Source: Bacillales bacterium
GTDB lineage: Bacteria > Bacillota > Bacilli > Bacillales > JAVBJX01
Assembly: GCA_031546705.1 (NCBI GenBank)
Contig: JAVBJX010000004.1
Location: 142,712-206,711, forward strand
Length of the DNA stretch: 64,000 nucleotides
Direction: 5' to 3'
Shown: positions 1 to 17,718 of the stretch, piece by piece
How positions within the stretch are numbered: position 1 is the first letter of the stretch
How the letters are laid out: every line of letters starts with the position of its first letter
The notes under the pieces: generated by a model
What the model saw: the letters and a program-made list of their open reading frames with translations, nothing else
Database searches by the model: none
Told to the model about the DNA's origin: nothing
Translations under genes and position numbers: made by a program

Positions 1-2037
1 CAACATAGAGTGAATATGCATAAAAGAAAGTTTATAAATATCAGACATAATTTGATTAAAATCCAAACAATTTGTTTTTTGAACAACTTTAATAACTCTT
101 GCCATTCCGATAAATTCCTTTGGAGAGGTAGAGCATAAATATCCCATATTATCTTTCTTGTAGTAGAGACTTTGTTCCGTCACCCATATATTTTTATCAT
201 ATTTATCATAAATAGCCATGCGACGATTAGCGTTCTTCAATATTTCGATGTAATCGAATGTAATGCCCATTCTGGATAATTTTTCTTCAATAAAAGTAAG
301 ATCTTCCCGACAGAATCCATCTCGATGAAATGTAATATGTTTTGGCACCTCAGCATATCTCTCTTTGTAAGAATGAATGGTATCATAAATAATTTCTTCT
401 ATGGTTGCTGTACTGATTTTTTCGCCAGCTTCATTTGTTGATAAAGACTTTTGCTTAATCATCGTTCCATCTTTGCCAATAATCTGGATAATTCCAGAGG
501 CATGTTTTCCATCTTCATGACTCACATCTAAGCCAATGAAACAATCAGAGTTAAGATTTTCACCAAGAACCCAAGGTTGTAAACCTGATTTCACATAAAT
601 GCCCAACAAAATATTTAAAATGGTGTAATGAGACTTAGACAATTCTAAAAGATCATTTGAAAACGAAATAAATTGAGTAACAATATCTTGTTTGCCTCCA
701 AACTCTTTTTTGATTGTTTTATATGCATTATTTATGAACTGTTCCGAAGCAATGACAATCACAGTGCCCTCGAAAGATTTTGAGATGGATTTTAATTCAT
801 ACGCTAAATCTGCGGAATTAAAAAAATTCTTCTCTAGTTTACCACGCAGTTCACGTGGTTTTTCCGAAACAATTAAGTTAACACCTAATTCAAAAGATTT
901 TTCTATTAATAACTTTGTTAATTTTCCTACATTTCTCCTCGTTTCTTCATTTTGTTGTAGGAGCGGGTCCACGAAAAAGCTGACGCGGGCTTCTTTTCCT
1001 TTGTAAACACCACCCTTTTTCAAACCCTCACTAATTTTAGTCATAGTTAATTCTTTACCGAACTTCAGTACAGGTGTGTTGGCATTCCTTATTTCGTAAC
1101 CTAAATTTACTGCTCTTACATTTTCTTTAGGGAACTCAAGCATTGGCAATTTTAACAACAGCTCACGAGTTTCTTTGAAAAGTTCCGTCATTTTTTCTTT
1201 CGGACTCATTTTGACTGTTTTAGAAGCAGTATTTCTTAAATGCATAGGTAATGATTCAAGCGAACAGCTAAGTTTTAATAACTGAGGTAAATAAGGAAAA
1301 ACTTTACCTTCTTTGCTTTTTACATGAACTATCAGAGATTCTTCAGTAACACTTAACAGCTTTTTCGTGTCTCCTTTTCGCGCATAATAGCTAATCACTG
1401 ATTCTTTTAAATAAGGACTTTCTTCTCCAGCTTTATAAGGTGCTATTTCTATGAATTCATATTCGTGAGTTCTTGAATTGTTAGGATCAACAACTGAAAT
1501 TCCTTTCGCAATATTCGACTCTCCCTTATTTAGCAAAATAAGAAGGTTGTCCCGATATTCAAAGCGATGAGTGTAGTTAAATCCCACATAGATTTCGTTG
1601 TTTTCATTTACCTTAACATCAATTTGAATTGCTGGATAGATTAATAATTCACTCTTGTTAATTGACTTTGTCTTCTTTAAGCGAAATGCTCCGCGATCCA
1701 TAACATGCGTAGAACGAGATCTTTGTTCTAATTCCTTTTTAACCAATCGTTCTAATAATTCTCTTTCAAAAGATCTTTCTAAAAAAATTGACCGTTCCTC
1801 ATATTTGATACACTCATGATTATCCCAACAGCTTATTTCAAAGAAAGATGCGACATATTGTCCGAAGAAAACGATAGTTTGGAAATTATTTTGCTTGCTT
1901 AGATTATAAACAATTTTTCCTCCCTGCGAGTATCTGTTTTCCTCGTCTGACAATGGAATAGTGTACAAATGAATTTTTAAAGAAGAAGCTTTGGTTGAAG
2001 CTAACCATTCCGAAAAATAGTACTGATTCTGATTCAT
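1..2037 (-). CDS. ago: Prokaryotic Argonaute, long-A type (N-PAZ-MID-PIWI); C-terminus truncated by window edge
   Basis: Manual translation from ATG 2037 (RBS GGAGG) gives 679 open codons to base 1: MNQNQYYFSEW...FERELLERLVKK...GFNYTHRFEY...AYKTIKKEFGGKQDIVTQF (MID pocket)...NILLGIYVKSGLQPW...DCFIGLDVSHE...EAGEKI...HITFHRDG...NRRMA...DIYKLSFMHIHSML. These motifs are typical of Firmicute pAgos such as KmAgo/CbAgo. Confidence 0.95.
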   Translation of the reverse strand, partial: MNQNQYYFSEWLASTKASSLKIHLYTIPLSDEENRYSQGGKIVYNLSKQNNFQTIVFFGQYVASFFEISCWDNHECIKYEERSIFLERSFERELLERLVKKELEQRSRSTHVMDRGAFRLKKTKSINKSELLIYPAIQIDVKVNENNEIYVGFNYTHRFEYRDNLLILLNKGESNIAKGISVVDPNNSRTHEYEFIEIAPYKAGEESPYLKESVISYYARKGDTKKLLSVTEESLIVHVKSKEGKVFPYLPQLLKLSCSLESLPMHLRNTASKTVKMSPKEKMTELFKETRELLLKLPMLEFPKENVRAVNLGYEIRNANTPVLKFGKELTMTKISEGLKKGGVYKGKEARVSFFVDPLLQQNEETRRNVGKLTKLLIEKSFELGVNLIVSEKPRELRGKLEKNFFNSADLAYELKSISKSFEGTVIVIASEQFINNAYKTIKKEFGGKQDIVTQFISFSNDLLELSKSHYTILNILLGIYVKSGLQPWVLGENLNSDCFIGLDVSHEDGKHASGIIQIIGKDGTMIKQKSLSTNEAGEKISTATIEEIIYDTIHSYKERYAEVPKHITFHRDGFCREDLTFIEEKLSRMGITFDYIEILKNANRRMAIYDKYDKNIWVTEQSLYYKKDNMGYLCSTSPKEFIGMARVIKVVQKTNCLDFNQIMSDIYKLSFMHIHSML

Positions 2038-2550
2038 ATTTATCCTCCACTAATCGAATTTATTTCCAATACAGGGCTTTAGCCTCGTCGTAGGTGAACG
2101 AACAGCGGATGCGTGGTTTTAAAACCACCAACTTTAAGAACAATTTTTCTTTTTCTATAAGATAATCCTTTTTAACCTTTTTCTTCGCTAATTCTTTCTT
2201 TAAGTAAAAATTAATAGTCGTAAGGTTCTTGTAATATCATAATCTATTTTATTAAAAAGGTTAGAAGGAAATTTTTGACCTTTCTCCAATATTTTTAGCG
2301 TCTCTTCAAAAAATCCTTATAACTATTGATATATTACAAAAATATCCTTTATTGTATAAAAAGTCAAATTCTGGTTGTGTAAGTAGATTTTCTTCACCGG
2401 AACTTATCGTTTAATAAATAACCATGAATACCCGATAATAAACGTTCTGTCCACATCGAACTAAACTATCTCCTTATTTGAATAAAAAAAAGCTGCCTAA
2501 GCAACTCGAATGTTATCTAACTATCGTACCCTCTATTTGAATAAAAGAGT

Positions 2551-3225
2551 TTATCCTTCATATTTCTTAAACGGTGTAAGTTTCAAAACAATTTTCATAA
2601 ACTCCTCATATGAAGAAAAATATTTATACCGCTTTCGAATAGTTTCTAATAACCAAAAAGGAACAGAATTTCCATCAATCATGTGATAGTACTCTTCATA
2701 CGCTTTTTTCAAATGCTCCCACCGAAAATCATTACCGGGCTGTGTATATTCCGAGACATCAAGTATTTTTGCTCTACCGTTTAGCAGTAAGATATTTTTT
2801 AAATGGATATCACGTGGATTTAACCCCTTTTTGCGTACATATTCTCTTGCATCCTCCACATCTTTTACAACCTGTTCTGGGATATGAATACCCTGTAGAA
2901 GGCAGTCAAAGAGAGTTTTTCCTTCCTCGTAACTTAAAACGAGGTATTGATCGTAAGAAGCAAAGCATGTTGAAAAAAAAGGTGAATCTTCTAGCACACT
3001 ATAAATATTTCTTTCAACTTTTATTTTTGATACTTTGTCCTTCGCATATATTTTAAATGCATAAGCTGGAGCATAAAGGTATTGGAAGACTGCTGCATCT
3101 GTCCCCACACCAATACAATTCAGATCATCAGAGTCACCACATATGGTTACAGATTCATTGTTAGGATTTGAGAAAACAGTAATTTTGGAAAGAGAATCAA
3201 TTGCGATGTCCCATTTATTCTCCAT
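2551..3225 (-). CDS. Small Ser/Thr protein kinase-like protein (YrzF-like)
   Basis: IGVGTDAAVF Gly-loop, AFKIY lysine, RDIHLKN catalytic loop, ILDVS. Confidence 0.8.
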   Translation of the reverse strand: MENKWDIAIDSLSKITVFSNPNNESVTICGDSDDLNCIGVGTDAAVFQYLYAPAYAFKIYAKDKVSKIKVERNIYSVLEDSPFFSTCFASYDQYLVLSYEEGKTLFDCLLQGIHIPEQVVKDVEDAREYVRKKGLNPRDIHLKNILLLNGRAKILDVSEYTQPGNDFRWEHLKKAYEEYYHMIDGNSVPFWLLETIRKRYKYFSSYEEFMKIVLKLTPFKKYEG

Positions 3226-3527: not shown

Positions 3528-4127
3528 TTACCTAAACCATCCCTTCTCTTTAGACTGCGTAATAGCTTCAATACGATTGGTCACTTCCAACTTATCCAAA
3601 ATAGTTGAAATATAATTTCTTACCGTTCCAGTTTTAATACTCAACTGATCCGCAATCTCCTTCGTATTCCTTCCACTTGCAATCAGCTCTAATACTTCTT
3701 TTTCACGTTGTGTAAGTGGATTTTCTTCGCTATATACATCATCCATTAATTCAGGTGCATAAATCCTCCTGCCAGCCACAATATGCCGAATAGAGCTCGC
3801 TAACTCCTCACTTGGACTATCTTTTAATAAATAGCCACGAACACCCGCTTTTAATGCTCGGCGAAAATAACCAGTTCGAGCGAAGGTGGTTAAAATAATT
3901 ACTTTGCATCCTAATTCTTTTAGTTCTTCAGCGGCATCTAGTCCACTTTTCTTTGGCATTTCTATGTCCATAATGCAAATGTCTGGATTGTGTTGATGCA
4001 CCAGAGAAATAGCCTGTTGTCCATTACTTGCTTTTCCAACTACTTCCATATCATCTTCTAAATTGAGTAAAGCACCTAATGCACCTAGCAACATTTGTTG
4101 ATCTTCAGCAATGACGATACGAATCAT
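3528..4127 (-). CDS. desR: NarL/LuxR-family response regulator DesR
   Basis: REC domain (AEDQ...MDIEMP) plus LTQREKEV HTH; in operon with desK and des. Confidence 0.92.
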   Translation of the reverse strand: MIRIVIAEDQQMLLGALGALLNLEDDMEVVGKASNGQQAISLVHQHNPDICIMDIEMPKKSGLDAAEELKELGCKVIILTTFARTGYFRRALKAGVRGYLLKDSPSEELASSIRHIVAGRRIYAPELMDDVYSEENPLTQREKEVLELIASGRNTKEIADQLSIKTGTVRNYISTILDKLEVTNRIEAITQSKEKGWFR

Positions 4128-5260
4128 AATAACTCTCCCTTCTCTGTCCGCTTTATCACATTCGGAATACTCATAATGATAATTGTTCCATTATCATTTA
4201 TAATATCTAAACTTCCATTAACAAATTCTAAACGCTCTTTCATTCCAAATATCCCGCTGCCTTTTCCTCTATTCTGTTCGTCTGTAATACCAATTCCATT
4301 ATCTTGAACAGTTACACATATTTCACCCCATGACTGCTCAATTTTGATTTGACAAGTAGAAGCTTGGCTATGTTTTACGATATTGTTCACGGATTCTTTT
4401 ACACACATACTTAAAATATTTTCAAGGTATAAGGATACATTTGCCAAAGTCCATTCCTCACTAATAAAATCTATTTCAGCCGCTTTTAATATTTCTGTGA
4501 CATGAATAATTTCCTCACTTAACCTAACTCCACGCATTTGTGATACCATTTTTCTTACCTCATTTAATGCCGTTCTCGCTGTTTGTTGAACGTCTTTTAA
4601 TTCACTTTGTGCTTGTTCGGGGTCTTTATAAATTAATTTTCTAGCTAAATCACTTTTAAGACCAATAAGAGAAAGTTTTTGTCCTAATGTATCGTGCAAA
4701 TCACGAGCGATTCTTTGGCGTTCTTCATGTTTTACTAGTTCAGCAATTCTTTCATTAGCATCTTGTAGCTGTTCCTCAAGAGCTTCTTGTTTCTTTTTAT
4801 TATAAATATTGAATGGAAGGAGGATGACACTAATTAAAATAATAATGATAAATGGTAACTGTGTTAAAAATAACTCATTCTTTTGAAGAACAACATTATA
4901 ATTTATAGAGATGATTGTACTAACTAAATGAATAACATAGAGTGTAATGAAGGCAATGCGGCTTTTTATATTGCCATTATAGTAGGCGATATAGAAAGAA
5001 AAATAAATGAATTGAAAAAGGATAGTCATTGTAACTGATATCCCAATAAGAATTGTTGTCCAAAGATATACTGGCCATTTTTTTGAAATAAAAGCAAAGC
5101 GGTAGGAGATAAAAAAAACAATTGTTAGTGTAATTCCGATAACTTTAGCAACTGTTCCAGAAGATTGAAAAACAAAATAAAATGGTAAAATGCTAAAAAC
5201 ACTCCACATATAAGGAGATGTTCCCCAGTTTTTTTGAAATATAGAGTAGCCTTTCTTCAT
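4124..5260 (-). CDS. desK: Membrane sensor histidine kinase DesK (HisKA_3)
   Basis: About 5 TM segments, ERQRIARDLHDTLGQKLS H-box, DNGIG; 4-nt overlap with desR. Confidence 0.92.
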   Translation of the reverse strand: MKKGYSIFQKNWGTSPYMWSVFSILPFYFVFQSSGTVAKVIGITLTIVFFISYRFAFISKKWPVYLWTTILIGISVTMTILFQFIYFSFYIAYYNGNIKSRIAFITLYVIHLVSTIISINYNVVLQKNELFLTQLPFIIIILISVILLPFNIYNKKKQEALEEQLQDANERIAELVKHEERQRIARDLHDTLGQKLSLIGLKSDLARKLIYKDPEQAQSELKDVQQTARTALNEVRKMVSQMRGVRLSEEIIHVTEILKAAEIDFISEEWTLANVSLYLENILSMCVKESVNNIVKHSQASTCQIKIEQSWGEICVTVQDNGIGITDEQNRGKGSGIFGMKERLEFVNGSLDIINDNGTIIIMSIPNVIKRTEKGELL

Positions 5261-5334
5261 TGGTAACCTCTTTCAGTTTTTTAATGATAGAAAGCACCAG
5301 CAAGCGTGTGTAACACCTACTAGTGCTTTAAAAA

Positions 5335-6357
5335 TCAAACGATATTTCTTTTTTTTGAAGCTATGACCTTTGCCTCTTTGTATCCAACAAAGTCTTTTCG
5401 TGTCTCATCCCATAGACGAAACTTGAGCGATTCCAAACTTGTGGATAACGTAAGTGTTGGGACGTTGTGTAAAGGATCTGTATTATTATGTGCTTCTTCT
5501 AATTTATAGTTTGGCACTCTTGGGCTTAAATGGTGAACATGATGGTAACCAATATTTCCAGTAAACCATTGCAATGGTTTCGGAAGTTTATAGAAGGAGC
5601 TTCCTTCTACTGCTGCTTTTACATATTCCCAATAAGCATCTACTTCAAAATACGAATCTTCAAATGTGTGTTGTACATAAAATAACCAAATACCAGCGGC
5701 ACCTGAGATTAAGAAAATCGTACCGTGTACTAACAGAAAAGCTTTCCATCCAACCGCCCAAATTAGAACGCTGACTACAGCAACAATAGCAACGTTTGTG
5801 AAGTATAAATTAAGCCGTTCTTTAAGCCTTGCATCTTTTCGATTAAAGCGGTTCTGAATAAGAAAACTATAAATTGGTCCAAAGCCAAACATGATGAATG
5901 GATTTCGATACAACCGATAAGATAATTTTTTCAAACTTGATGCCGCTATATACTCTTCAACAGTAAGCAACCATATATCCCCTGTACCACGCTTGTCTAA
6001 ATTGGAACTTGTTGCATGATGAACGGAATGATCATGTTGCCATTGTCCATATGGAAAAAATGTAATAATCCCTGTTATTGTTCCAACAATGTCATTGACA
6101 CGCCGACTTTTAAAAAAGGAGTAATGACAGCAATCGTGAAAGATAATAAATATTCGCACGAGAAATCCACCAGCAACAATACTAATAGCTAACGTAAGAA
6201 AATAGGATATATCAAGGCTTTTATATGCCAAAAGCCATAAAGCTACAAACGGAATAAACGTATTAATCATCTGCCAAACACTGTTCTTTGTGTTTGATTT
6301 TTCATAAGGAAGCATTTGTTTTCTCAATTGTTTTTGTTTTTCTTTTTCTGTAGTCAT
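5335..6357 (-). CDS. des: Fatty acid desaturase Des
   Basis: His boxes HDCCH, HSVHH, HHVHH; start moved to ATG 6357 (MTTEKE), which has an upstream RBS. Confidence 0.93.
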   Translation of the reverse strand: MTTEKEKQKQLRKQMLPYEKSNTKNSVWQMINTFIPFVALWLLAYKSLDISYFLTLAISIVAGGFLVRIFIIFHDCCHYSFFKSRRVNDIVGTITGIITFFPYGQWQHDHSVHHATSSNLDKRGTGDIWLLTVEEYIAASSLKKLSYRLYRNPFIMFGFGPIYSFLIQNRFNRKDARLKERLNLYFTNVAIVAVVSVLIWAVGWKAFLLVHGTIFLISGAAGIWLFYVQHTFEDSYFEVDAYWEYVKAAVEGSSFYKLPKPLQWFTGNIGYHHVHHLSPRVPNYKLEEAHNNTDPLHNVPTLTLSTSLESLKFRLWDETRKDFVGYKEAKVIASKKRNIV

Positions 6358-6420
6358 TGGGTTATTCCCTTCCTTTTTATTATTTATAATAAGGATATAG
6401 GAGTAACCCAAACTTTAGTA

Positions 6421-9334: not shown

Positions 9335-10870
9335 CTATACTGGGTAAACCCCATGTTTCCGATCTGTAAACTGTTGATATTTAGAGCGATACGCATCAAA
9401 ACGCTGAATTAATTCTTTGCGAAGATTATTCGGTTCAATAATACCATCAATTACCATTTCAGAAGCAAGTCGATAAATATCAATATCATCACGATATTCT
9501 TGACGTTTTTCTTCAATAAATGTCGCTCTATCTTCTTCTGGTAACTCAGCAATTTTATTTGCATACACCGCATTTACTGCCGCTTCTGGTCCCATTACCG
9601 CAATTTGAGCATGAGGGAATGCTAGACAACAATCTGGTTCAAATGCTGGACCTGCCATTGCATACAACCCTGCTCCATACGCTTTACGAACAACGACAGA
9701 AATTTTTGGTACAGTTGCCTCGGACATTGCTGAAATCATTTTTGCACCATGACGAATAATTCCTGCTCGCTCTACTTTTGTTCCAATCATAAATCCCGGA
9801 ACATCAGCTAGGAATAATACAGGGATATGGAAAGCATCGCACAATGTAATAAACTTTGCTGCCTTATCTGCTGTATCGTGAAATAATACGCCACCTTTTA
9901 CTCTTGACTGATTGGCGATAATCCCAATTGATTCTCCATTTAAACGAGCCAGTCCTGTAATTAATTCAGGTGCAAACAATTTTTTAATCTCACAAAATGA
10001 AGCTTCATCAATGAGTCTATTAATTAATTCCATCATATTGAACGGAGCATTTTGGTTTTTCGGAAGAATTTCATCTAATGTTTTTTCAAACACTCTTGGT
10101 CCTTTTGTTTCTACTGTTGGTGATTTCTCTGTGTAATTTGCTGGAAAGAATGATAAATATTTTTTCGCATACGCAATTGCTTCTTCTTCTGATTTCGCCA
10201 GTACATCTCCACAACCAGATGTCGAGCAATGCATTTTTGCTCCACCCATTTCTTCTAACGTTACTTTTTCGCCAATAACCATTTCTGCCATGCGTGGTGA
10301 GCCTAAATACATGGAGCTATTACCCTCGACCATAATAACAATGTCACAAAATGCTGGAATATACGCCCCACCTGCGGCTGATGGTCCAAAAAGCAAACAA
10401 ACTTGTGGAATTTTTCCTGATAATTTTACTTGGTTATAAAAAATACGTCCTGCTCCACGTCTACCTGGGAACATTTCAATTTGATCGGTAATTCTTGCTC
10501 CTGCTGAATCAATTAAATAAATAAGCGGATAGCGAAGTTTTTCCGCTGTTTCTTGTAAGCGAATCATTTTTTCAACCGTACGTGAACCCCATGAACCCGC
10601 TTTAATCGTTGAGTCATTGGCAATCACGCACACTTTTTGACCATTAATGGAACCGATGCCTGTAATAACCCCATCTGCTGGTAAATCTTTAGCTAGACAA
10701 TTCGCAAATAATCCATCTTCACTTTCTAAGCCATTGTCTAATAATAATTGAAGACGTTCACGAGCAAATAATTTCCCTTGATCTTTATTTTTTGTATGAT
10801 ATTTTTCCGCTCCACCTTTTTCGATTTCCTGAACTTTTTGCAGAAGCATTTCTGTTAATTCACTTGTCAT
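9335..10870 (-). CDS. yngE: Acyl-CoA (methylcrotonyl-CoA) carboxylase carboxyltransferase subunit
   Basis: DSAGARI, GPSAAGGAY, RKAYGAGLYAM motifs; operon context. Confidence 0.88.
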   Translation of the reverse strand: MTSELTEMLLQKVQEIEKGGAEKYHTKNKDQGKLFARERLQLLLDNGLESEDGLFANCLAKDLPADGVITGIGSINGQKVCVIANDSTIKAGSWGSRTVEKMIRLQETAEKLRYPLIYLIDSAGARITDQIEMFPGRRGAGRIFYNQVKLSGKIPQVCLLFGPSAAGGAYIPAFCDIVIMVEGNSSMYLGSPRMAEMVIGEKVTLEEMGGAKMHCSTSGCGDVLAKSEEEAIAYAKKYLSFFPANYTEKSPTVETKGPRVFEKTLDEILPKNQNAPFNMMELINRLIDEASFCEIKKLFAPELITGLARLNGESIGIIANQSRVKGGVLFHDTADKAAKFITLCDAFHIPVLFLADVPGFMIGTKVERAGIIRHGAKMISAMSEATVPKISVVVRKAYGAGLYAMAGPAFEPDCCLAFPHAQIAVMGPEAAVNAVYANKIAELPEEDRATFIEEKRQEYRDDIDIYRLASEMVIDGIIEPNNLRKELIQRFDAYRSKYQQFTDRKHGVYPV

Positions 10871-10964
10871 TGTGCATCCCCATTTCTCATTCTATGTATT
10901 TATTTTTCTAATTAAAAAATAATAAAGCGGAAAAGGAATAACCCATCCCTTTTCCACCACACAA

Positions 10965-11741
10965 CTATTCCCCACTATACACAGGTGGACGCTTCTCTTG
11001 AAAAGCCTTCAATCCCTCTAAACGATCCTTTGTCGAAATAACTTCCTCATAACCGCTCGCTTCAATCTTCATTCCTTCTTCTAAACTTCCATCCATTCCT
11101 TGGCTAATAACACGCTTTGCGGCACGAATAGCTACTGGTCCATTTGCACTAATTGTCTTTGCCATTTGCATAGCTGTTTGGTCTAGTTCAGCAAATGGTA
11201 CAACTTTTTCTACAAGTCCGATTCTCTCTGCTTCAACAGCATCAATCCGCTTTGCAGTAAAAATCATTTCCTTTGCTTTGCCAATTCCAATCAAACGTGG
11301 GAGCCGTTGTGTTCCACCTGCACCGGGAATAATTCCTAATGCCGTTTCCGTCAGCCCACATTTCATTTGTTCAGAAGCAATTCGAATGTCACAAGCAAGA
11401 GCAAGCTCTAATCCACCGCCAAAAGCAACACCGTTGATGGCACAAATTACTGGTATAGCTAACTTTTCTACTGCCGAAATGGTACTACCAATTAATTTAA
11501 CTGTTTCTCTTACTTGTTGTTCATTCATGCCTAAACGTTCTTTTAAATCTGCACCTGCACAAAATGCTTTTTCACCACTACCAGTTAGAATAACCACACG
11601 TATTTGTTTATTTTCAGAAATATCTTTAACTGCTTTAGTTAGTTCATGAAGTAATTCTGTACATAAAGCATTTGCGGCATTCGTTCGATTTAGTGTCACT
11701 TTAGCGATTGATTTCTCTAAAACTACTTGAATATGGTTCAT
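10965..11741 (-). CDS. yngF: Enoyl-CoA hydratase (methylglutaconyl-CoA hydratase-like)
   Basis: AFCAGADLKE, GGGLELALACD, PGAGGTQRL. Confidence 0.88.
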   Translation of the reverse strand: MNHIQVVLEKSIAKVTLNRTNAANALCTELLHELTKAVKDISENKQIRVVILTGSGEKAFCAGADLKERLGMNEQQVRETVKLIGSTISAVEKLAIPVICAINGVAFGGGLELALACDIRIASEQMKCGLTETALGIIPGAGGTQRLPRLIGIGKAKEMIFTAKRIDAVEAERIGLVEKVVPFAELDQTAMQMAKTISANGPVAIRAAKRVISQGMDGSLEEGMKIEASGYEEVISTKDRLEGLKAFQEKRPPVYSGE

Positions 11742-12637
11742 GCTCGTCCCTCCGCTTTCATAAAGTGGCTACTAACTTCTCTGCCCAAACTTTTTTCAAT
11801 TTGCTGTGCGGCATTTTTTACTTTTTCTAAATCAATATTTGTTTCAATACCCATTTCATGAAGCATATACAGCACATCTTCGGTTGCGACATTTCCAGCT
11901 GCTCCAGGTGCATATGGGCAACCACCTATTCCACCAATGGAACTATCGAATGTTTCAATGCCTACTTCTAGTCCTTTGACAATATTAGCAAGTGCCATTC
12001 CTCTTGTATTATGAAAATGAAGGGCTAATGTTTCAGATTTAAAATGGCGATTTAATATAGACATTACTTCCTCTACTTGATACGGATTAGCAATTCCGAT
12101 TGTGTCACCAAGAGATATTTCATAAGCACCCATTTCCAAGAGTTTTTCTGTTACTCGAATGACGTTGTCTATATCCGTTTTGCCCTCGTATGGACAACCA
12201 AAAACAGTGGATACATACGCTCGAACTTTTTTTCCTGCTTGTATTGTAGCAGTTGCAACTTCTCCTAAAATCGGAAACGTATCGGTAATAGATTTATTAA
12301 TATTTTTTAGATTGTGTGTTTCTGTTGCTGACATAAAAATGGCTACTTCATCTACATTACATGTAAGTGCTGTTTCTAAACCTCGCATATTTGGAACAAG
12401 TGCCGCATAAGACACGCCACTTGTTCTCTTAATTTTTTCAGAAACTTCTTCAGCGTCTTTCAGTTGTGGAATCCATTTTGGATTGACAAAAGAGGTAATT
12501 TCAATATACGGAATACCTGTTGTTGAAATCGTGTCAATCCATTCGATTTTTTTTTCTGTAGGAATCCATTCACTTTCATTTTGCAATCCATCTCGTGGGC
12601 CAACCTCTTTAATTGTTACACGTTTTGGGAGGTACAT
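11738..12637 (-). CDS. yngG: Hydroxymethylglutaryl-CoA lyase
   Basis: EVGPRDGLQNE, HFHNT, GGCPYAPGAAGNVATED. Confidence 0.93.
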   Translation of the reverse strand: MYLPKRVTIKEVGPRDGLQNESEWIPTEKKIEWIDTISTTGIPYIEITSFVNPKWIPQLKDAEEVSEKIKRTSGVSYAALVPNMRGLETALTCNVDEVAIFMSATETHNLKNINKSITDTFPILGEVATATIQAGKKVRAYVSTVFGCPYEGKTDIDNVIRVTEKLLEMGAYEISLGDTIGIANPYQVEEVMSILNRHFKSETLALHFHNTRGMALANIVKGLEVGIETFDSSIGGIGGCPYAPGAAGNVATEDVLYMLHEMGIETNIDLEKVKNAAQQIEKSLGREVSSHFMKAEGRA

Positions 12638-12847
12638 TTATTCTAGCACCATCAAAATATCATCTTCGTTGACAAAACTGCCTTCACTGACCAGAACTTC
12701 TTTAACTGTACCAGCTTCTTCCGCCGCAATTGGAATTTCCATTTTCATTGATTCCAAAATAACAACATCTTGTCCTTCTTCTACCTTTTCGCCAACCGCT
12801 ACAACGATTTTCCAAACATTTCCTGCCATTGATGCTTTGATTTCCAT
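12638..12847 (-). CDS. yngHB: Biotin carboxyl carrier protein
   Basis: ESMKME biotinylation motif, 69 aa. Confidence 0.88.
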   Translation of the reverse strand: MEIKASMAGNVWKIVVAVGEKVEEGQDVVILESMKMEIPIAAEEAGTVKEVLVSEGSFVNEDDILMVLE

Positions 12848-12849
12848 GT

Positions 12850-14205
12850 TTATTCTCCTTTTTTTCGCATGATTTCAATAAATTTTGTTGTGTAGTTTCC
12901 AGATTCGTACATTGGATGTGCCACAATTTCTTGTAACACTGGGATATTTGTTTTAATCCCTTCAATTTTGTACGTTGCCAATGCCTCGCTCATTTGCTTG
13001 ATTGCTAGTTCACGAGTTTCCCCATATGTAATTAATTTCGCAATCATTGGATCATAAAATGGCGTAACCGCTATTCCATTTTCAATTGCTGTATCATTAC
13101 GTACATTTTCTCCTTCTGGAAATGAAACGGTTTGAATCGTTCCCGGAGATGGGTAAAATGTTTTTGGATCTTCTGCGTAAATTCGAGCTTCAATTGCATG
13201 TCCAGTCAACTGTACTTCTTGTTGGGTAAAGGATAATTTTTCACCACTCGCAATAAGTAACTGTTGTTCAACAAGGTCAAGCCCTGTAATCCATTCTGTT
13301 ACTGGATGTTCCACTTGCAGACGAGTATTCATTTCAAGAAAATAGAAATTTTTCTGAGCGTCCATCAAAAACTCAATTGTTCCTGCACTGACATAACCAA
13401 TATGTTTTGCCGCTTTAGTAGCAACTTCTCCAAGTTTTTTTCGTAACTCCTCATCGACAAATGGAGACGGTGCTTCTTCTACTACTTTTTGATTACGGCG
13501 TTGGATTGAACATTCTCTTTCCCATAAATAAACAACATTTCCAAATGAATCCGCTAGAAGCTGTACTTCAATGTGATGTGGAGAATCAATATATTTTTCA
13601 ATATACATCGCTCCATTACCGAAAAAGTTTTCTGCTCTCGTCTTTGTTCCATCGTATATTTTTCGTAAGTTTTCTTCATCGGTAGCAAGTTGCATACCAA
13701 TACCGCCACCACCTGCGGATGCTTTTAACATCACTGGATAGCCAATTTCTTCTGCAAGTTTTACTGCCTCTTCAACGTCAGAAAGCGGTGTTGTTTTTCC
13801 TGGAACAATTGGCACGTCTGCTTCACTCATTGTTAAACGGGCATTGATTTTATCTCCCATTGCTTCAATTGTAGTTGCCTTTGGTCCGATAAAAACAATA
13901 TTTGCTTTCCCACATTTACGGGCAAACTCGGCATTTTCAGATAACAAACCATAACCGGGATGAATCGCATCTACATTGGCAGCCTTTGCTACTTCAATAA
14001 TTTTATCCATTTGTAAATAGCTTTCATTTACTCTCGGTTTACCAACTTCATAACTTTCATCTGCTTCCCGAACGTGTAAAGCATTATTATCTGCTTCTGA
14101 GTAAATGGCAACCGTTTGAATGCCAAGTCTTTTACATGTTTTTATAATACGTCTAGCAATTTCGCCACGATTGGCAATTAATATTTTTTTAAACATTATT
14201 ATCAC
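12850..14205 (-). CDS. yngHA: Biotin carboxylase subunit
   Basis: ANRGEIA, HPGYGLLSEN, EMNTRLQVEHPVTE. Confidence 0.88.
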   Translation of the reverse strand: MIIMFKKILIANRGEIARRIIKTCKRLGIQTVAIYSEADNNALHVREADESYEVGKPRVNESYLQMDKIIEVAKAANVDAIHPGYGLLSENAEFARKCGKANIVFIGPKATTIEAMGDKINARLTMSEADVPIVPGKTTPLSDVEEAVKLAEEIGYPVMLKASAGGGGIGMQLATDEENLRKIYDGTKTRAENFFGNGAMYIEKYIDSPHHIEVQLLADSFGNVVYLWERECSIQRRNQKVVEEAPSPFVDEELRKKLGEVATKAAKHIGYVSAGTIEFLMDAQKNFYFLEMNTRLQVEHPVTEWITGLDLVEQQLLIASGEKLSFTQQEVQLTGHAIEARIYAEDPKTFYPSPGTIQTVSFPEGENVRNDTAIENGIAVTPFYDPMIAKLITYGETRELAIKQMSEALATYKIEGIKTNIPVLQEIVAHPMYESGNYTTKFIEIMRKKGE

Positions 14206-14216
14206 TCACTCTGCTA

Positions 14217-15851
14217 CTATTTTAGTTGCTCTATCGCTTGTTCACGAAGTTTGTATTTTTGTATTTTTCCTGATGCCGTCATTGGATACTGATCTACGAA
14301 TGAAATGTATCGTGGAATTTTATGACGAGAAATTCTTTCCACACAAAACTCTCTTAGTTCTGCTTCCGTTAATGTTTTTTCTGGTTTCAAACGAACCCAT
14401 GCCATGACTTCTTCCCCGTACTTTTCATCAGGTACGCCAACAATTTGAACATCCAATACATCTGGATGCGTATATAAAAATTCCTCAATTTCTCGTGGAT
14501 AAATGTTTTCACCACCACGAATAATCATGTCTTTTAAACGACCTGTAATTTTCACATAACCTTGCTCATCCATTGTTGCTAAATCACCTGTGTGTAACCA
14601 GCCTTCATCATCAATTGCTTCTCCTGTTGCCGCTTCATTATTATAATAACCCTTCATAATGTGGTAGCCCCGTGAACATAATTCTCCTTGTGTATGTACA
14701 GGAACTTCTTCATTATTAATTGGATTTACAATTTTCACTTCGACATTTGGTAATGCTCTTCCAACAGTTTCTGTGCGAAGTTCTAAAGAATCAGTTGGTC
14801 TTGTTTGGGTAATAACTGGCGATGCTTCCGTTTGTCCGTAAGCAATCGTTATTTCTTTTGCTCCCATTTTTTCAATAACTTGAGTCATGACTTCCATCGG
14901 GCAATTTGCTCCTGCCATTACACCTGTCCGAAGTGTTGTTAGTTTAAAAGAATCCAAATCAGGATGATTGAGTTCAGCAATAAACATGGTTGGAACACCG
15001 TGTAAGACAGTACAATTCTCCTGCTCGACAATTTCTAAAACTAAACGAGGATCAAATTTCTCAAGTGGTACCATTGTTGCTCCAACAGATACTGCCGCCA
15101 TTGTTCCAATAACACATCCAAAGCAATGGAAGAACGGAACAGGAATACACATCCGGTCAGTTTGAACTAAATTCATACACTGGGCGATATTGTAGGCGTT
15201 GTTAATTACATTATCATGAGTCAACATAACTCCTTTAGGAAATCCAGTTGTGCCTGATGTATATTGCATATTAATGACATCGGAATGATGCAATGAACTG
15301 GATCGTTCCACTAGCTGTGTGTCAGAAACCTGTTCACTTGTCTTTAACAAATCATTCCAACTGTATGTACCAGGATAACTAACTTCACCTAACACAATTA
15401 CATTACGTAAATGTGGCAACACCTTAGAGTTTAATTTCCCCGGTTCACTTATTTTAAGTTCAGGAACGACACTATACAACGTTTCAATATAGGAATGATC
15501 ATGAAATTTTTCTATTAAAACAATCGTTGTTGCTTCTGACTGTTGTAATAAAAAGTTAAGTTCTTGTTTTCGGTAACTTGTATTTACGGTAACAAGTACG
15601 GCTCCCATTTTTCCAGTCGCAAATTGACATGTGACCCATTCTGGTACATTTGATGCCCAAATTGCTACATTTTCGCCCTTTTCAATTCCTAATCCAATAA
15701 AACCTTTTGCTACTGTTTTACATTGTTCATTAAATTGTTCATAGGTTAAACGTAAACCTCTATCATAGTAAACAAGTGCTTCATGGTCTGGATATTGTTT
15801 TGCTTGTTGCTCTAACAGTTCACCAACTGTGACACTCATCAATTCTGCCAT
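14217..15851 (-). CDS. yngI: Acyl-CoA synthetase (AMP-binding)
   Basis: YTSGTTGFPKG, YGQTE, GWLHTGD, TASGKIQK. Confidence 0.88.
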   Translation of the reverse strand: MAELMSVTVGELLEQQAKQYPDHEALVYYDRGLRLTYEQFNEQCKTVAKGFIGLGIEKGENVAIWASNVPEWVTCQFATGKMGAVLVTVNTSYRKQELNFLLQQSEATTIVLIEKFHDHSYIETLYSVVPELKISEPGKLNSKVLPHLRNVIVLGEVSYPGTYSWNDLLKTSEQVSDTQLVERSSSLHHSDVINMQYTSGTTGFPKGVMLTHDNVINNAYNIAQCMNLVQTDRMCIPVPFFHCFGCVIGTMAAVSVGATMVPLEKFDPRLVLEIVEQENCTVLHGVPTMFIAELNHPDLDSFKLTTLRTGVMAGANCPMEVMTQVIEKMGAKEITIAYGQTEASPVITQTRPTDSLELRTETVGRALPNVEVKIVNPINNEEVPVHTQGELCSRGYHIMKGYYNNEAATGEAIDDEGWLHTGDLATMDEQGYVKITGRLKDMIIRGGENIYPREIEEFLYTHPDVLDVQIVGVPDEKYGEEVMAWVRLKPEKTLTEAELREFCVERISRHKIPRYISFVDQYPMTASGKIQKYKLREQAIEQLK

Positions 15852-15869
15852 ACAAATACCCCCTTGTAT

Positions 15870-17012
15870 TTAACAGCCAATATGTCTAGCAATAACAATG
15901 CGTTGTACTTCTGATGTTCCTTCGCCAATTTCCATTAATTTAATGTCACGCAAATGACGCTCTACTCCTGTTTCTTTCATATAACCATTACCACCATGAA
16001 TTTGAATGGCTTGATTACAAATCCAAAATCCTTTTTCGGATGCAAAGAGTTTCGCAAAAGCCGCTTCTTTACCAAATGGTTTGTTGTTATCTTTTAGCCA
16101 AGCCGCTTTGTAGACAGCCGTTCTTGCTAAGTCAAGATACATTGCCATATCTGCTAATTTAAATTGTGTTGCTTGGAATGAAGATAGTGTCGTTCCAAAT
16201 TGTTTGCGTTCTTTTGAATATTGTAGTGCCTTTTCATAAGCTGCTTGAGCAATCCCAACCGATAATGCCGCAATCGAAATTCTTCCACCATCTAGTGTAT
16301 ATAAAAATTGTTTGAAGCCTTTGCTTAAGTCACCAAGAATATTTTCTTTTGGTACACGAACATCTTCCAAGATTAATTCGCACGTATCAGATGCCCGTAC
16401 GCCCATTTTGTCGTATTCAGAACGAATTGTAAAACCTTTTGAATCTGTTGGAACAAGGAATGCACCAATGACATTTTTACCACGATCATCTTTACCTGTA
16501 ACAGCCGTTACAATAACTTGACGAGCAAAACTAGCGTTTGTAATCCAACATTTCTCTCCATTAATGACATACTCGTCACCTTCAAGTACGGCACGAGTTT
16601 GTGTTCCCCCTGCATCAGATCCAGCATTTGGTTCTGTTAAACCGAATGAACCAAATGTTTTTCCTTCTGCCATTGGCACAAGCCATTCTTGTTTTTGTTC
16701 TTCTGTTCCAAAATAATAAACTGGACTTGCTCCAAGGGAAACAGCGGCAGCATAACTAAGACCAGTTCCTCCACAAGCACGACCAATTTCTTCTACCACA
16801 GCGGCATACGCAATTGTATCAGCTCCTGCACCACCATATTTTTCTGGAAATGGAATGCCAAAGAAACCTAGTTCACCCATTTTCTTAAATGTGTTGATTG
16901 GAAATTTAGAATGCTTATCTAACTCTTGTGCGTGAGGCATAATTTCTGCCTCTGCAAAATCACGTGCCGTTTTTTGAAACATCTTTTGGTCTTCGTTTAA
17001 TTCAAAATTCAT
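15870..17012 (-). CDS. yngJ: Acyl-CoA dehydrogenase
   Basis: FGLTEPNAGSDA, QIHGGNGY, IGEGTSEVQR. Confidence 0.9.
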   Translation of the reverse strand: MNFELNEDQKMFQKTARDFAEAEIMPHAQELDKHSKFPINTFKKMGELGFFGIPFPEKYGGAGADTIAYAAVVEEIGRACGGTGLSYAAAVSLGASPVYYFGTEEQKQEWLVPMAEGKTFGSFGLTEPNAGSDAGGTQTRAVLEGDEYVINGEKCWITNASFARQVIVTAVTGKDDRGKNVIGAFLVPTDSKGFTIRSEYDKMGVRASDTCELILEDVRVPKENILGDLSKGFKQFLYTLDGGRISIAALSVGIAQAAYEKALQYSKERKQFGTTLSSFQATQFKLADMAMYLDLARTAVYKAAWLKDNNKPFGKEAAFAKLFASEKGFWICNQAIQIHGGNGYMKETGVERHLRDIKLMEIGEGTSEVQRIVIARHIGC

Positions 17013-17036
17013 TGTAATTCCTCCTTAGTTAGTGGA

Positions 17037-17058
17037 TAAGACAGACTGGTCGGTCTTA
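17037..17058. promoter_or_regulatory. Putative TetR operator palindrome
   Basis: TAAGACAGACTGGTCGGTCTTA, 18/22 positions self-complementary, between tetR and the first catabolic gene. Confidence 0.6.
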
Positions 17059-17091
17059 TTATGATTGTATAAAAAACGGATATCTCCGATT

Positions 17092-17718
17092 TCAACGATT
17101 TTTAATAAAAAATTGAGTAACTTGTTCGTTCTCTCTTCGGTCTTCATGGACAATGGAGTGAATAATAAGGTCAGTAAAGACATCTGTAATTTCGTTTATC
17201 GACATCTCTCCGTCTTTTCTATACCATTTATATGTCCAATTAATCATGCCAATAATGGACATTGTTGTGATATTCACAGGTAACTCCGTGCGGAATTCTC
17301 CTGATTCTACCCCTTCTTGTAAGACACGAAATAAAATTTGCTTAAATTCTTTTCTTTTTTTCTTAATTAGTTCTGAGTACTCAGGTTTTAAGTAAACGCT
17401 TTCTTGATAGAAAACAGTAATGTGCGACTTATACAAGTCAAACACTTGGAGAAAAAATTGAACAATCGTGCAAATTCGTTCTGTTGAAGTTGTGTGCGTT
17501 TCGTATGCTTCTTTTGCTTTCGTTAAAGCATACGTAATAAACTCATCATGGATGAAATATAACAATTCATCTTTTGATTTAAAATTATGATAAAAACCTC
17601 CTTTTGATGAAGAAGTTTCCTCAATAATTCGATCAACTGTTACGCCATGATAACCCTGTATCTCAAATAAATGTAAAGATGCATCAATAATACGATTTCT
17701 TAAGGATTTTTCTGCCAT
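17092..17718 (-). CDS. TetR/AcrR-family regulator (KstR2-like C-terminus)
   Basis: N-terminal HTH (GYHGVTVDRII...SKGGFYHNFKSKDELL); IIGMINWTYKWY C-terminal motif. Confidence 0.9.
   Translation of the reverse strand: MAEKSLRNRIIDASLHLFEIQGYHGVTVDRIIEETSSSKGGFYHNFKSKDELLYFIHDEFITYALTKAKEAYETHTTSTERICTIVQFFLQVFDLYKSHITVFYQESVYLKPEYSELIKKKRKEFKQILFRVLQEGVESGEFRTELPVNITTMSIIGMINWTYKWYRKDGEMSINEITDVFTDLIIHSIVHEDRRENEQVTQFFIKNR

What the first reader, a model, noticed from the sequence alone, without database searches (positions are those of the whole stretch)
1..2037. Unannotated long-A prokaryotic Argonaute, likely catalytically active
Seen: the ORF track misses this gene because its stop lies outside the window. 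Translating the minus strand gives 679 uninterrupted codons with the MID 5'-phosphate pocket (Y-x3-K...Q...K) and PIWI residues D504 (IGLDVSH), E539 (AGEKI) and D573 (FHRDG). Established: these are the first three DEDX residues, and the 35/34-residue spacing matches my recollection of KmAgo. Inference: the fourth residue should lie about 10 codons beyond the window. This would be a Bacillaceae pAgo nuclease candidate (defence and biotech interest). No partner gene is visible upstream; any partner downstream is outside the window.
Basis: partly seen in the sequence, partly recalled or inferred. Interest (0 to 1): 0.8.

Follow-up and report, generated by a model that had tools for sequence, protein, structure and literature searches.

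The report
Intact KmAgo-related long Argonaute nuclease gene
This is a complete, stand-alone bacterial Argonaute gene with every residue needed to bind a small guide and cut a matching nucleic acid; it is a new member of a well-known family, not a new kind of system.

Summary
Window 1-2037 (minus strand) holds the first 679 codons of a gene. In the parent contig it runs 36 codons further, to a 715-aa protein ending ...RLPITTHYAD...ALPFV.

Evidence that it is a long prokaryotic Argonaute (pAgo):
- Pfam Piwi match, 79.8 bits against a cut-off of 28.9.
- End-to-end match to a PADLOC pAgo model, E 1.2e-279.
- KmAgo is the best solved relative, E 1.5e-123.
- The AlphaFold2 model (pLDDT 84.7) superposes on guide-bound KmAgo at TM 0.86.

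The catalytic tetrad D504/E539/D573/D691, the 5'-phosphate pocket Y439/K443/Q455/K483 and the C-terminal V715 align with KmAgo's proven residues. All are kept in 20 of 20 clade members.

The protein belongs to an uncharacterised clade that is sister to the KmAgo/BsAgo/DeAgo clade. It is 77% identical to its nearest public relative and 34-35% identical to the active enzymes BsAgo and DeAgo.

No partner gene lies on either side. The neighbours are housekeeping genes.

Most likely it is an active, DNA-guided nuclease used in defence. Activity is inferred, not shown: PmAgo has a full tetrad yet was inactive. Verdict: real, correctly read, and ordinary.

The parts
1..2037 (-). pAgo coding sequence, codons 1-679 of 715. 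The whole gene is L006:14890-17037 (window -110..2037); the last 36 codons and the stop lie left of the window.
   Evidence: Pfam Piwi; PADLOC pAgo PDLC02386, E 1.2e-279, residues 4-715; KmAgo 8xhs E 1.5e-123; fold TM 0.86 to 8xhv
1..759 (-). In-window part of the PIWI (RNase H-like) domain. The Pfam match covers residues 427-694; residues 680-694, including D691, lie outside the window.
   Evidence: PF02171, 79.8 bits, residues 427-694
526..528 (-). Codon of D504, first catalytic Asp, equivalent to KmAgo D527
   Evidence: invariant in 73 of 73 aligned relatives
421..423 (-). Codon of E539, the glutamate finger, equivalent to KmAgo E562
   Evidence: E in 72 of 73 aligned relatives
319..321 (-). 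Codon of D573, third tetrad residue, equivalent to KmAgo D596
   Evidence: invariant in 73 of 73
589..723 (-). Codons of the MID 5'-phosphate pocket: Y439 (721-723), K443 (709-711), Q455 (673-675), K483 (589-591). They are equivalent to KmAgo Y434, K438, Q450, K506.
   Evidence: all four kept in 20 of 20 members of the protein's own clade
2044..2048 (-). Shine-Dalgarno GGAGG, 6 nt upstream of the ATG at 2035-2037
   Evidence: read directly from the sequence
2053..2138 (-). Copy of a short dispersed repeat in the 5' leader, just upstream of the ribosome-binding site. Three more copies lie on contigs C4, C27 and C53. Its role is unknown.
   Evidence: no Rfam match
2490..2507 (-). Terminator-like hairpin plus T-run after the upstream kinase-like gene. 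It suggests the pAgo is transcribed on its own.
   Evidence: Only 2 such sites were found in the region against 1.7 expected, so this is weak.

Best explanation
The gene encodes a full-length (715 aa), six-domain (N-L1-PAZ-L2-MID-PIWI) long prokaryotic Argonaute of the catalytically active 'long-A' type. It belongs to an uncharacterised clade that is sister to the KmAgo/BsAgo/DeAgo clade.

Proposed mechanism, by homology with KmAgo:
1. The MID pocket (Y439, K443, Q455, K483) binds the 5'-phosphate and first base of a small guide. A divalent cation held by the C-terminal carboxylate of V715 takes part. The guide is most likely 16-20 nt of single-stranded DNA.
2. The PAZ domain holds the guide's 3' end.
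3. After the guide pairs with a complementary strand, D504, D573 and D691 coordinate two Mn2+/Mg2+ ions, assisted by the glutamate finger E539. They cut the target between positions 10' and 11'.

In the cell it would act as a stand-alone innate immune nuclease against plasmids and phages. It has no partner protein and has its own ribosome-binding site.

Shown here: gene integrity, family, fold, conservation of every functional residue, and absence of a partner gene. Inferred: nuclease activity, guide and target type, and the defence role.
For: Gene integrity:
- Intact 715-aa frame with no frameshift; homologues align from residue 3-4 to the last residue.

Family and fold:
- Pfam Piwi 79.8 bits against a cut-off of 28.9. 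PADLOC pAgo model matched end to end, E 1.2e-279.
- PDB sequence search: KmAgo 1.5e-123, CpAgo 6.7e-37, CbAgo entry 6qzk 1e-30, TtAgo 2.8e-12.
- AlphaFold2 model, mean pLDDT 84.7, pTM 0.81. Foldseek: guide-bound KmAgo 8xhv E 2.7e-67, TM 0.86/0.85 over the whole chain, followed by CbAgo, CpAgo and TtAgo.

Functional residues:
- The tetrad and the YKQK pocket align with KmAgo residues whose mutation nearly abolished cleavage (D527, D596, D713) or which bind the guide 5'-phosphate (passages of PMC11514475).
- Y, K, Q, K, D, E, D, D and the terminal V are each kept in 20 of 20 members of the protein's own clade and in 20 of 20 members of the KmAgo clade.
- The low-confidence stretch 676-698, which carries D691, matches KmAgo's mobile C-terminal region. 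There D713 enters the catalytic pocket only after guide binding.

Activity of relatives:
- BsAgo (P0178 = WP_100402176.1, 35% identical) and DeAgo (P0181 = WP_052698403.1, 34% identical) cut DNA with 5'-P DNA guides at the 10'/11' position.
- KmAgo carries small DNAs when expressed in E. coli.

Genomic setting:
- Distribution is patchy, as usual for a defence gene: 7 of 400 other genomes sampled in the order have a match.
- In relatives the gene lies beside IS21, PDDEXK_2 transposase genes, a type III restriction enzyme, an HNH nuclease and an AbiO/Nhi-like helicase.
- It has its own GGAGG ribosome-binding site and sits downstream of a terminator-like hairpin.
- Weak hint of expression: in one metatranscriptome run (X1), four short contigs at 99% identity or more lie inside the gene. 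DNA carry-over in that library is not excluded.
Against: - No biochemical data exist for this protein or any member of its 20-cluster clade. Clade members' accessions occur in 0 papers, and the single paper holding both 'Argonaute' and 'Neobacillus' is a CRISPR primase-polymerase study by its title.
- A full tetrad does not guarantee activity. PmAgo, about 50% identical to KmAgo and carrying DEDX, showed no cleavage.
- Identity to the characterised enzymes is only 31-35%.
- The position equivalent to KmAgo K625, whose Ala mutant almost lost cleavage, is N602 here and N in 16 of 20 clade members. The position is also N, S, T or F in the 7 outgroup rows, which I infer but did not show to be CbAgo/CpAgo-like.
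- This genome's own locus has no mobile or defence genes around it. The nearest neighbours are trpB and a kinase-like gene found in 244 of 401 genomes; further along lie DesKR/Des, TrkA, a leucine-catabolism operon and GlnA. The defence role therefore rests on homology, not on local context.
- The 9-of-12 promoter-like match upstream is no better than chance: 21 sites found against 19.3 expected.
- One X1 contig carries an extra T behind L006:15074 inside the gene, at depth 3.8. This is probably an error but is unresolved.
Confidence: 0.75

Rival explanations
1. The protein is a correctly folded long pAgo that binds guides, but it is catalytically inert or very weak despite its full DEDD tetrad. 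It would act by binding rather than slicing.
For: PmAgo, a KmAgo relative with a conserved DEDX tetrad, showed no cleavage at all (passages of PMC8945025). N602 replaces the lysine equivalent to KmAgo K625, whose Ala mutant nearly lost cleavage. The D691-bearing segment 676-698 and the segment 507-512 next to D504 are modelled with pLDDT below 50.
Against: All nine functional positions are kept in 20 of 20 clade members, which suggests selection for catalysis. Position 602 varies in active lineages too. The low pLDDT of the C-terminal region mirrors a mobile but functional region in KmAgo. Three of the four KmAgo relatives tested in PMC8945025 were active.
Confidence: 0.13
2. The gene is a domesticated chromosomal pAgo. 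Its main job would be chromosome maintenance (decatenation or resolution of replication termini, tolerance to topoisomerase poisons) rather than defence against invaders.
For: Both flanks are housekeeping genes, with no IS elements, integrase or defence genes within about 15 kb to the left and 20 kb to the right. The gene's GC content (0.31-0.33) matches its surroundings. The listed abstract of PMC10269773 reports that TtAgo helps decatenate chromosomal DNA, and that SeAgo and LrAgo are active in heterologous E. coli; its title says bacterial Argonautes aid cell division in the presence of topoisomerase inhibitors (search listing only).
Against: The same proteins are also defence nucleases, so the two roles are not exclusive. 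Relatives of this clade lie in mobile or defence neighbourhoods. The gene is found in only 7 of 400 other genomes of the order, unlike a core maintenance function.
Confidence: 0.08
3. The enzyme is active but mainly targets RNA or uses RNA guides. It would then be an RNA-directed system rather than a DNA-interference nuclease.
For: Its closest solved relative, KmAgo, uses DNA and RNA guides on DNA and RNA targets (abstracts of PMC7897485 and PMC8053121; passages). RsuAgo also cuts RNA. DNA-guided RNA-targeting pAgos are known: PliAgo and VbAgo (abstracts).
Against: BsAgo and DeAgo, which are as close to this protein as KmAgo is, cut only DNA with 5'-P DNA guides. KmAgo itself is more active on DNA and carries only small DNAs in cells. 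Guide and target preference cannot be read from the sequence.
Confidence: 0.12

Closest known systems
KmAgo (Kurthia massiliensis Argonaute; PDB 8xhs, 8xhv and others)
   Same: Six-domain long pAgo. Best PDB match by sequence (E 1.5e-123) and by fold (TM 0.86). Identical tetrad spacing (35 and 34 residues), YKQK pocket, C-terminal ...LPFV, and the RLP.T.HYADLS motif. Like KmAgo's mobile C-terminal region, the D691-bearing segment is modelled with low confidence.
   Different: About 31% identity in the structural alignment. It lacks the roughly 28-residue insert between the MID Q and K residues that marks the KmAgo clade: 28 residues here, against 48-57 in 20 of 20 KmAgo-clade rows. It is 715 aa against 737. 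N602 stands where KmAgo has K625. It falls in the sister clade, not inside the KmAgo clade.
BsAgo (WP_100402176.1) and DeAgo (WP_052698403.1), characterised in PMC8945025
   Same: Same superclade, with full DEDD and YKQK. Both were shown to cut DNA at 10'/11' with 5'-P DNA guides at 37 C.
   Different: 35% and 34% identity. Both carry the KmAgo-type insert and are 739 aa long.
Uncharacterised Piwi-domain proteins of Metabacillus sp. 84 (WP_426843279.1), Bacillus ectoiniformans (WP_204556778.1) and Neobacillus spp.
   Same: Same 20-cluster clade (SH-aLRT 99). 77%, 63% and 54% identical over the full length. Same length class (702-738 aa) and the same functional residues.
   Different: Different genomic settings. 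The Metabacillus copy lies directly downstream of IS21 istA/istB, next to an HNH nuclease and an SLFN-type helicase. No neighbouring gene is shared with this locus.
CbAgo / CpAgo (Clostridium long-A pAgos; PDB 6qzk, 9jh7)
   Same: Long-A architecture, DEDD tetrad and YKQK pocket. Matches at E 1e-30 to 6.7e-37 by sequence and TM 0.72-0.78 by fold.
   Different: About 20% identity. Seven weaker full-length hits served as the outgroup; I infer, but did not test, that they are CbAgo/CpAgo-like.

Membership tests
Long prokaryotic Argonaute, catalytically active type (long-A) | PIWI domain recognised by the curated family model | tested here: met
   Pfam PF02171, 79.8 bits against a cut-off of 28.9, residues 427-694. 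It is the only Piwi match in the genome.
Long prokaryotic Argonaute, catalytically active type (long-A) | Full N-L1-PAZ-L2-MID-PIWI architecture, not a short MID-PIWI form | tested here: met
   PADLOC pAgo model aligned over residues 4-715 and profile positions 2-697 of 697. The AlphaFold2 model superposes on whole-chain KmAgo-guide complex 8xhv at TM 0.86/0.85.
Long prokaryotic Argonaute, catalytically active type (long-A) | Complete DEDX catalytic tetrad | tested here: met
   D504, E539, D573 and D691 align with KmAgo D527, E562, D596 and D713. They are kept in 20 of 20 clade members.
Long prokaryotic Argonaute, catalytically active type (long-A) | MID 5'-phosphate pocket X-K-Q-K plus a C-terminal carboxylate that reaches it | tested here: met
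   Y439, K443, Q455, K483 and terminal V715 align with KmAgo Y434, K438, Q450, K506 and V737. Metal and guide binding themselves were not tested.
Long prokaryotic Argonaute, catalytically active type (long-A) | Phylogenetic placement among active long pAgos | tested here: met
   Quick maximum-likelihood tree of 73 rows. The protein's own 20-row clade (SH-aLRT 99) is sister (99) to the 20-row clade holding BsAgo, DeAgo and a close KmAgo relative. That KmAgo is a 'long active' pAgo related to CbAgo comes from PMC8053121. No long-B or short pAgo rows were included in the tree.
Long prokaryotic Argonaute, catalytically active type (long-A) | Guide-dependent endonucleolytic cleavage at target position 10'/11' | not testable with these tools
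   This needs purified protein. PmAgo shows that the tetrad alone is not sufficient.
KmAgo subgroup (KmAgo, RsuAgo, BsAgo, DeAgo) | Membership of the KmAgo clade, with its roughly 28-residue insert between the MID Q and K residues | tested here: not met
   The Q455-K483 distance is 28 residues here and 25-33 in the protein's own clade. It is 48-57 in 20 of 20 KmAgo-clade rows and 23-39 in the outgroup. The protein falls in the sister clade. Identity is 31-35%.
pAgo systems with a partner effector (short pAgo SPARTA/SPARDA, long-B with nuclease or SIR2, long-A with PLD, Cas4-like or RNase partners) | A conserved co-oriented partner gene next to the pAgo | tested here: not met
   Downstream is a 556-bp spacer, then a convergent trpB. 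Upstream is a 513-bp spacer with a terminator-like hairpin, then a kinase-like gene found in 244 of 401 genomes of the order, against 8 of 401 for the pAgo. No gene is shared between this locus and 6 relatives' loci. tblastn with five neighbour proteins from the relatives' loci found nothing against the 20-kb locus L006, and the six-frame translations of the two spacers flanking the pAgo show no long open frame.

The most novel reading that the evidence does not exclude
This clade is sister to KmAgo, lacks the KmAgo-type MID-PIWI insert, and has no characterised member. It could have a guide/target range or a cellular role unlike the known mesophilic pAgos. For example, it could be a domesticated chromosomal enzyme working in replication termination or DNA repair in a lineage that is the only held genome of its family. 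Or it could be a compact 'omnipotent' nuclease using both DNA and RNA guides. The housekeeping neighbourhood, the native GC content and the dispersed repeat in the 5' leader are compatible with host-integrated regulation.
Probability: 0.12. Interest if true: 0.55.

Novelty: new member of a known kind. Interest (0 to 1): 0.33.

Why it matters
Mesophilic long-A pAgos are sought as programmable nucleases that need no PAM, for diagnostics and DNA/RNA manipulation. KmAgo is among the most versatile of them. This protein gives a complete, apparently functional sequence from the uncharacterised sister clade of KmAgo. That clade has about 20 clusters at the identity levels sampled, and 20 of 20 keep the catalytic and guide-binding residues. 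Testing one member would show whether KmAgo's broad guide/target range and its unusual 'DDD' catalysis predate the KmAgo-specific insert. For pAgo biology it is an incremental addition, not a surprise.

Tried and rejected
1. Partner genes. I compared all ORFs of 90 aa or more in this locus with those of 6 relatives' loci. Nothing but the pAgo is shared with this locus, apart from an unrelated aldo-keto reductase at 34% identity. tblastn with five neighbour proteins of the relatives (three copies of the 171-aa protein, the SLFN-type helicase, the PDDEXK_2 transposase) against the 20-kb locus L006 gave only chance hits, E 0.29 or worse. The six-frame translations of the two spacers flanking the pAgo show no long open frame.
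2. Empty-site search. The 11 best orthologue loci of the upstream kinase-like gene, each with 1.5-kb flanks, contain no trpB or pAgo. A DesR-like start appears in 2 of 11. No insertion site could be defined.
3. Defence island. PADLOC on 16 neighbouring proteins gave strong hits only for a RecQ-like helicase about 10 kb away (DpdF models). Weaker hits (best E 8.5e-21) fell on the ABC-transporter ATPase and the DesR-like regulator. I read all of these as housekeeping cross-hits.
4. Structured RNA in the flanks and in the leader repeat. Rfam gave only one sub-threshold hit (tpke11, 19.9 bits against 43), which lies in the downstream spacer.
5. Promoter scan. Matches are no more frequent than in shuffled sequence.
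6. Plasmid carriage. The best plasmid hit is 33% identical, on a Pontibacillus megaplasmid. 8 of 72,556 records matched, none close.
7. The genome-contig scan, run with the single protein, returned only 1 locus, from Metabacillus sp. 84.
8. KmAgo itself was not retrieved as a stored protein. The tree therefore uses a close relative, P0023 (E 2.2e-259 to 8xhs), plus BsAgo and DeAgo.
9. Runs X2 and X3 gave only matches of 32 nt or less. Parts of the gene without cover in run X1 carry no meaning.
10. Earlier findings of this scan: nothing was returned by place or by sequence.
11. (MAFFT --auto) hit the time limit. I reran it with faster settings.
Full report
OBSERVATION. With open ends allowed, the ORF listing gives a 679-aa frame at window 1..2037 on the minus strand. 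It starts at an ATG and runs off the left edge. The window is G000:C32:142712-206711, so I fetched C32:127712-147711 as L006 (window position = L006 position minus 15000). There the frame is L006:14890-17037 and encodes 715 aa, ending ...KTRLPITTHYADLSSTFHNRGLLHPSSKHEDALPFV. The predicted fourth residue is D691 in RLPITTHYAD, 12 codons past the window edge. Stop-to-stop the frame is 719 codons, so the N-terminus is well defined. GGAGG lies 6 nt before the ATG.

WHAT IT IS. Pfam Piwi scores 79.8 bits against a cut-off of 28.9, over residues 427-694. A PADLOC pAgo model matches residues 4-715 at E 1.2e-279. Against PDB sequences the best hits are KmAgo (1.5e-123), CpAgo (6.7e-37), the CbAgo entry 6qzk (1e-30) and TtAgo (2.8e-12). 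An AlphaFold2 model built on 25 homologues has mean pLDDT 84.7 and pTM 0.81. Foldseek places it on guide-bound KmAgo 8xhv at TM 0.86/0.85 over the whole chain, followed by CbAgo, CpAgo and TtAgo. It is therefore a six-domain long pAgo. It is the only Piwi gene found in this genome, which is 83% complete.

FUNCTIONAL RESIDUES. In passages of PMC11514475, KmAgo's tetrad is D527/E562/D596/D713. Its 5'-phosphate motif is Y434/K438/Q450/K506, and a Mn2+ ion is held by the carboxylate of V737. The HMMER alignment maps these residues to D504/E539/D573/D691, Y439/K443/Q455/K483 and V715. In a 73-row alignment all nine positions are kept in 20 of 20 members of the protein's own clade and in 20 of 20 KmAgo-clade rows. 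The model's two stretches with pLDDT below 50 are 507-512 and 676-698. The second carries D691 and corresponds to KmAgo's mobile C-terminal region, where D713 enters the pocket only after guide binding. One difference: N602 stands where KmAgo has K625, whose Ala mutant nearly lost cleavage. That position varies across the family, including the outgroup rows.

RELATIVES AND PLACEMENT. The nearest public proteins are from Metabacillus sp. 84 (77%), Bacillus ectoiniformans (63%) and Neobacillus spp. (54%). A scan of 1.84 billion representative proteins found 346 hits at E 0.001 or better, 149 at 1e-10 and 48 at 1e-30. I built a quick maximum-likelihood tree (LG+G4, SH-aLRT support only) from 73 of the 193 stored proteins. 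Rows were chosen from chosen id ranges and limited to 600-800 aa. Fragments, longer forms and the weaker hits P0054-P0061 and P0073-P0173 were left out. The query sits in a 20-row clade (support 99) that is sister (99) to a 20-row clade (100). That second clade holds BsAgo (P0178 = WP_100402176.1), DeAgo (P0181 = WP_052698403.1) and P0023, a close KmAgo relative. Identity to BsAgo and DeAgo is 35% and 34%. The KmAgo clade has a derived insert of about 28 residues between the MID Q and K residues: 48-57 residues in 20 of 20 rows, against 25-33 in the protein's own clade and 23-39 in the outgroup. I found no paper on any member of the protein's own clade. Five clade-member accessions occur in 0 papers. 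The only paper holding both 'Argonaute' and 'Neobacillus' is unrelated by its title. The search library lacks most subscription journals, and supplements were not examined.

CONTEXT. Downstream of the stop there is a 556-bp spacer, then a convergent trpB (TIGR00263, E 3.8e-184). A hairpin about 150-200 nt past the stop is a possible terminator (z-score -2.26). Upstream there is a 513-bp spacer with a terminator-like hairpin, then a 224-aa kinase-like gene. That gene has matches in 244 of 401 genomes of the order, against 8 of 401 for the pAgo, so it is a core gene and not a partner. Further neighbours are DesR/DesK/fatty-acid desaturase, TrkA, a leucine-catabolism-type operon, GlnA, an ABC transporter and RecQ. 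GC content is 0.31-0.33 across the gene, like its surroundings. This genome is the only one of its family in the held set. In the order, 7 of 400 other sampled genomes have a match, in 7 of 133 genera counting G000. In relatives the gene sits beside IS21 istA/istB, PDDEXK_2 transposases, a type III restriction enzyme, an HNH nuclease and an SLFN-type helicase with AbiO/Nhi-like hits. None of these occurs in this locus.

EXPRESSION HINT. One metatranscriptome run (X1) holds four short contigs, at 99% identity or more, inside the gene, and two inside trpB. The tool warns that DNA can be present in RNA libraries, so this is not proof of transcription. One of these contigs has an extra T behind L006:15074 at depth 3.8, which may be an error.

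MECHANISM. By homology, the protein binds a 5'-phosphorylated small guide, most likely DNA, in the MID pocket. It pairs the guide with a target and cuts between 10' and 11' by two-metal catalysis through D504/D573/D691 with E539. It would serve as a stand-alone defence nuclease. Supporting evidence from relatives: BsAgo, DeAgo and RsuAgo cut at 10'/11' with 5'-P DNA guides, and KmAgo carries small DNAs in cells. AddA is present in this genome; the link between AddAB and guide biogenesis rests on my recall of CbAgo work, not on any call. Against this: PmAgo has a full tetrad but was inactive, and no data exist for this clade.

VERDICT. The protein is a new member of a known kind: a long-A pAgo in the sister clade of KmAgo. 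It has moderate biotechnological interest and little conceptual novelty.

Noticed in passing
window 2053-2138 (L006:17053-17138); other copies at G000:C4:717-799, C27:70272-70333, C53:38010-38087: A short dispersed repeat lies in the pAgo 5' leader, just upstream of the ribosome-binding site. The shared core is about 60-86 nt at 85-94% identity, and the C4 and C53 copies share up to 174 nt. It contains a GGTGGTTTTAAAACCAC hairpin. Four copies are found in this 83%-complete genome. There is no Rfam match.
   Followed up: partly
window 2551-3225 (-): A 224-aa protein-kinase-like gene with a weak Pfam Pkinase hit (23.3 bits, below the cut-off) and weak PD-T4-6 hits. It has matches in 244 of 401 genomes of the order, up to 83% identical. 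It is a conserved core gene of unknown role and not a pAgo partner.
   Followed up: partly
window 3528-6411 (-): A DesR-like response regulator, a DesK histidine kinase (DesK_N domain, E 7.7e-53) and a fatty-acid desaturase lie in a row. This is the classic membrane-fluidity thermosensor module.
   Followed up: no
L022:10185-10700, L023:7422-7937, L021:11758-12279 (relatives G133, G163, G382): A 171-173-aa protein with no Pfam or PADLOC match lies next to the pAgo in 3 of 6 relatives' loci. Two of these come from one genus. The ESM Atlas shows only unnamed Bacillota clusters. It is a possible clade-specific pAgo neighbour and is absent from this window's locus.
   Followed up: partly
L006:2824-4656 (+), about 10 kb left of the window: A 610-aa RecQ-like helicase scores E 2.3e-202 on PADLOC DpdF models. 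It is probably the housekeeping RecQ, which shows how those models cross-hit.
   Followed up: no
L006:13056-14333 (+), left of the window: A stand-alone trpB (TIGR00263, E 3.8e-184) convergent with the pAgo. No other trp gene is adjacent in the 20-kb locus. The listed ORF start probably over-extends the N-terminus by about 25 residues.
   Followed up: no
L006:15074 (window 74): One low-depth (3.8) contig of metatranscriptome run X1 has an extra T inside the pAgo coding region. It could be an assembly error or a frameshifted variant in that sample.
   Followed up: no
window 9335-17718 (-): An operon of carboxyltransferase, enoyl-CoA hydratase, HMG-CoA lyase-like, biotin carboxylase, AMP-binding ligase, acyl-CoA dehydrogenase and a TetR regulator. 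This is a leucine/isovalerate catabolism-type cluster.
   Followed up: no
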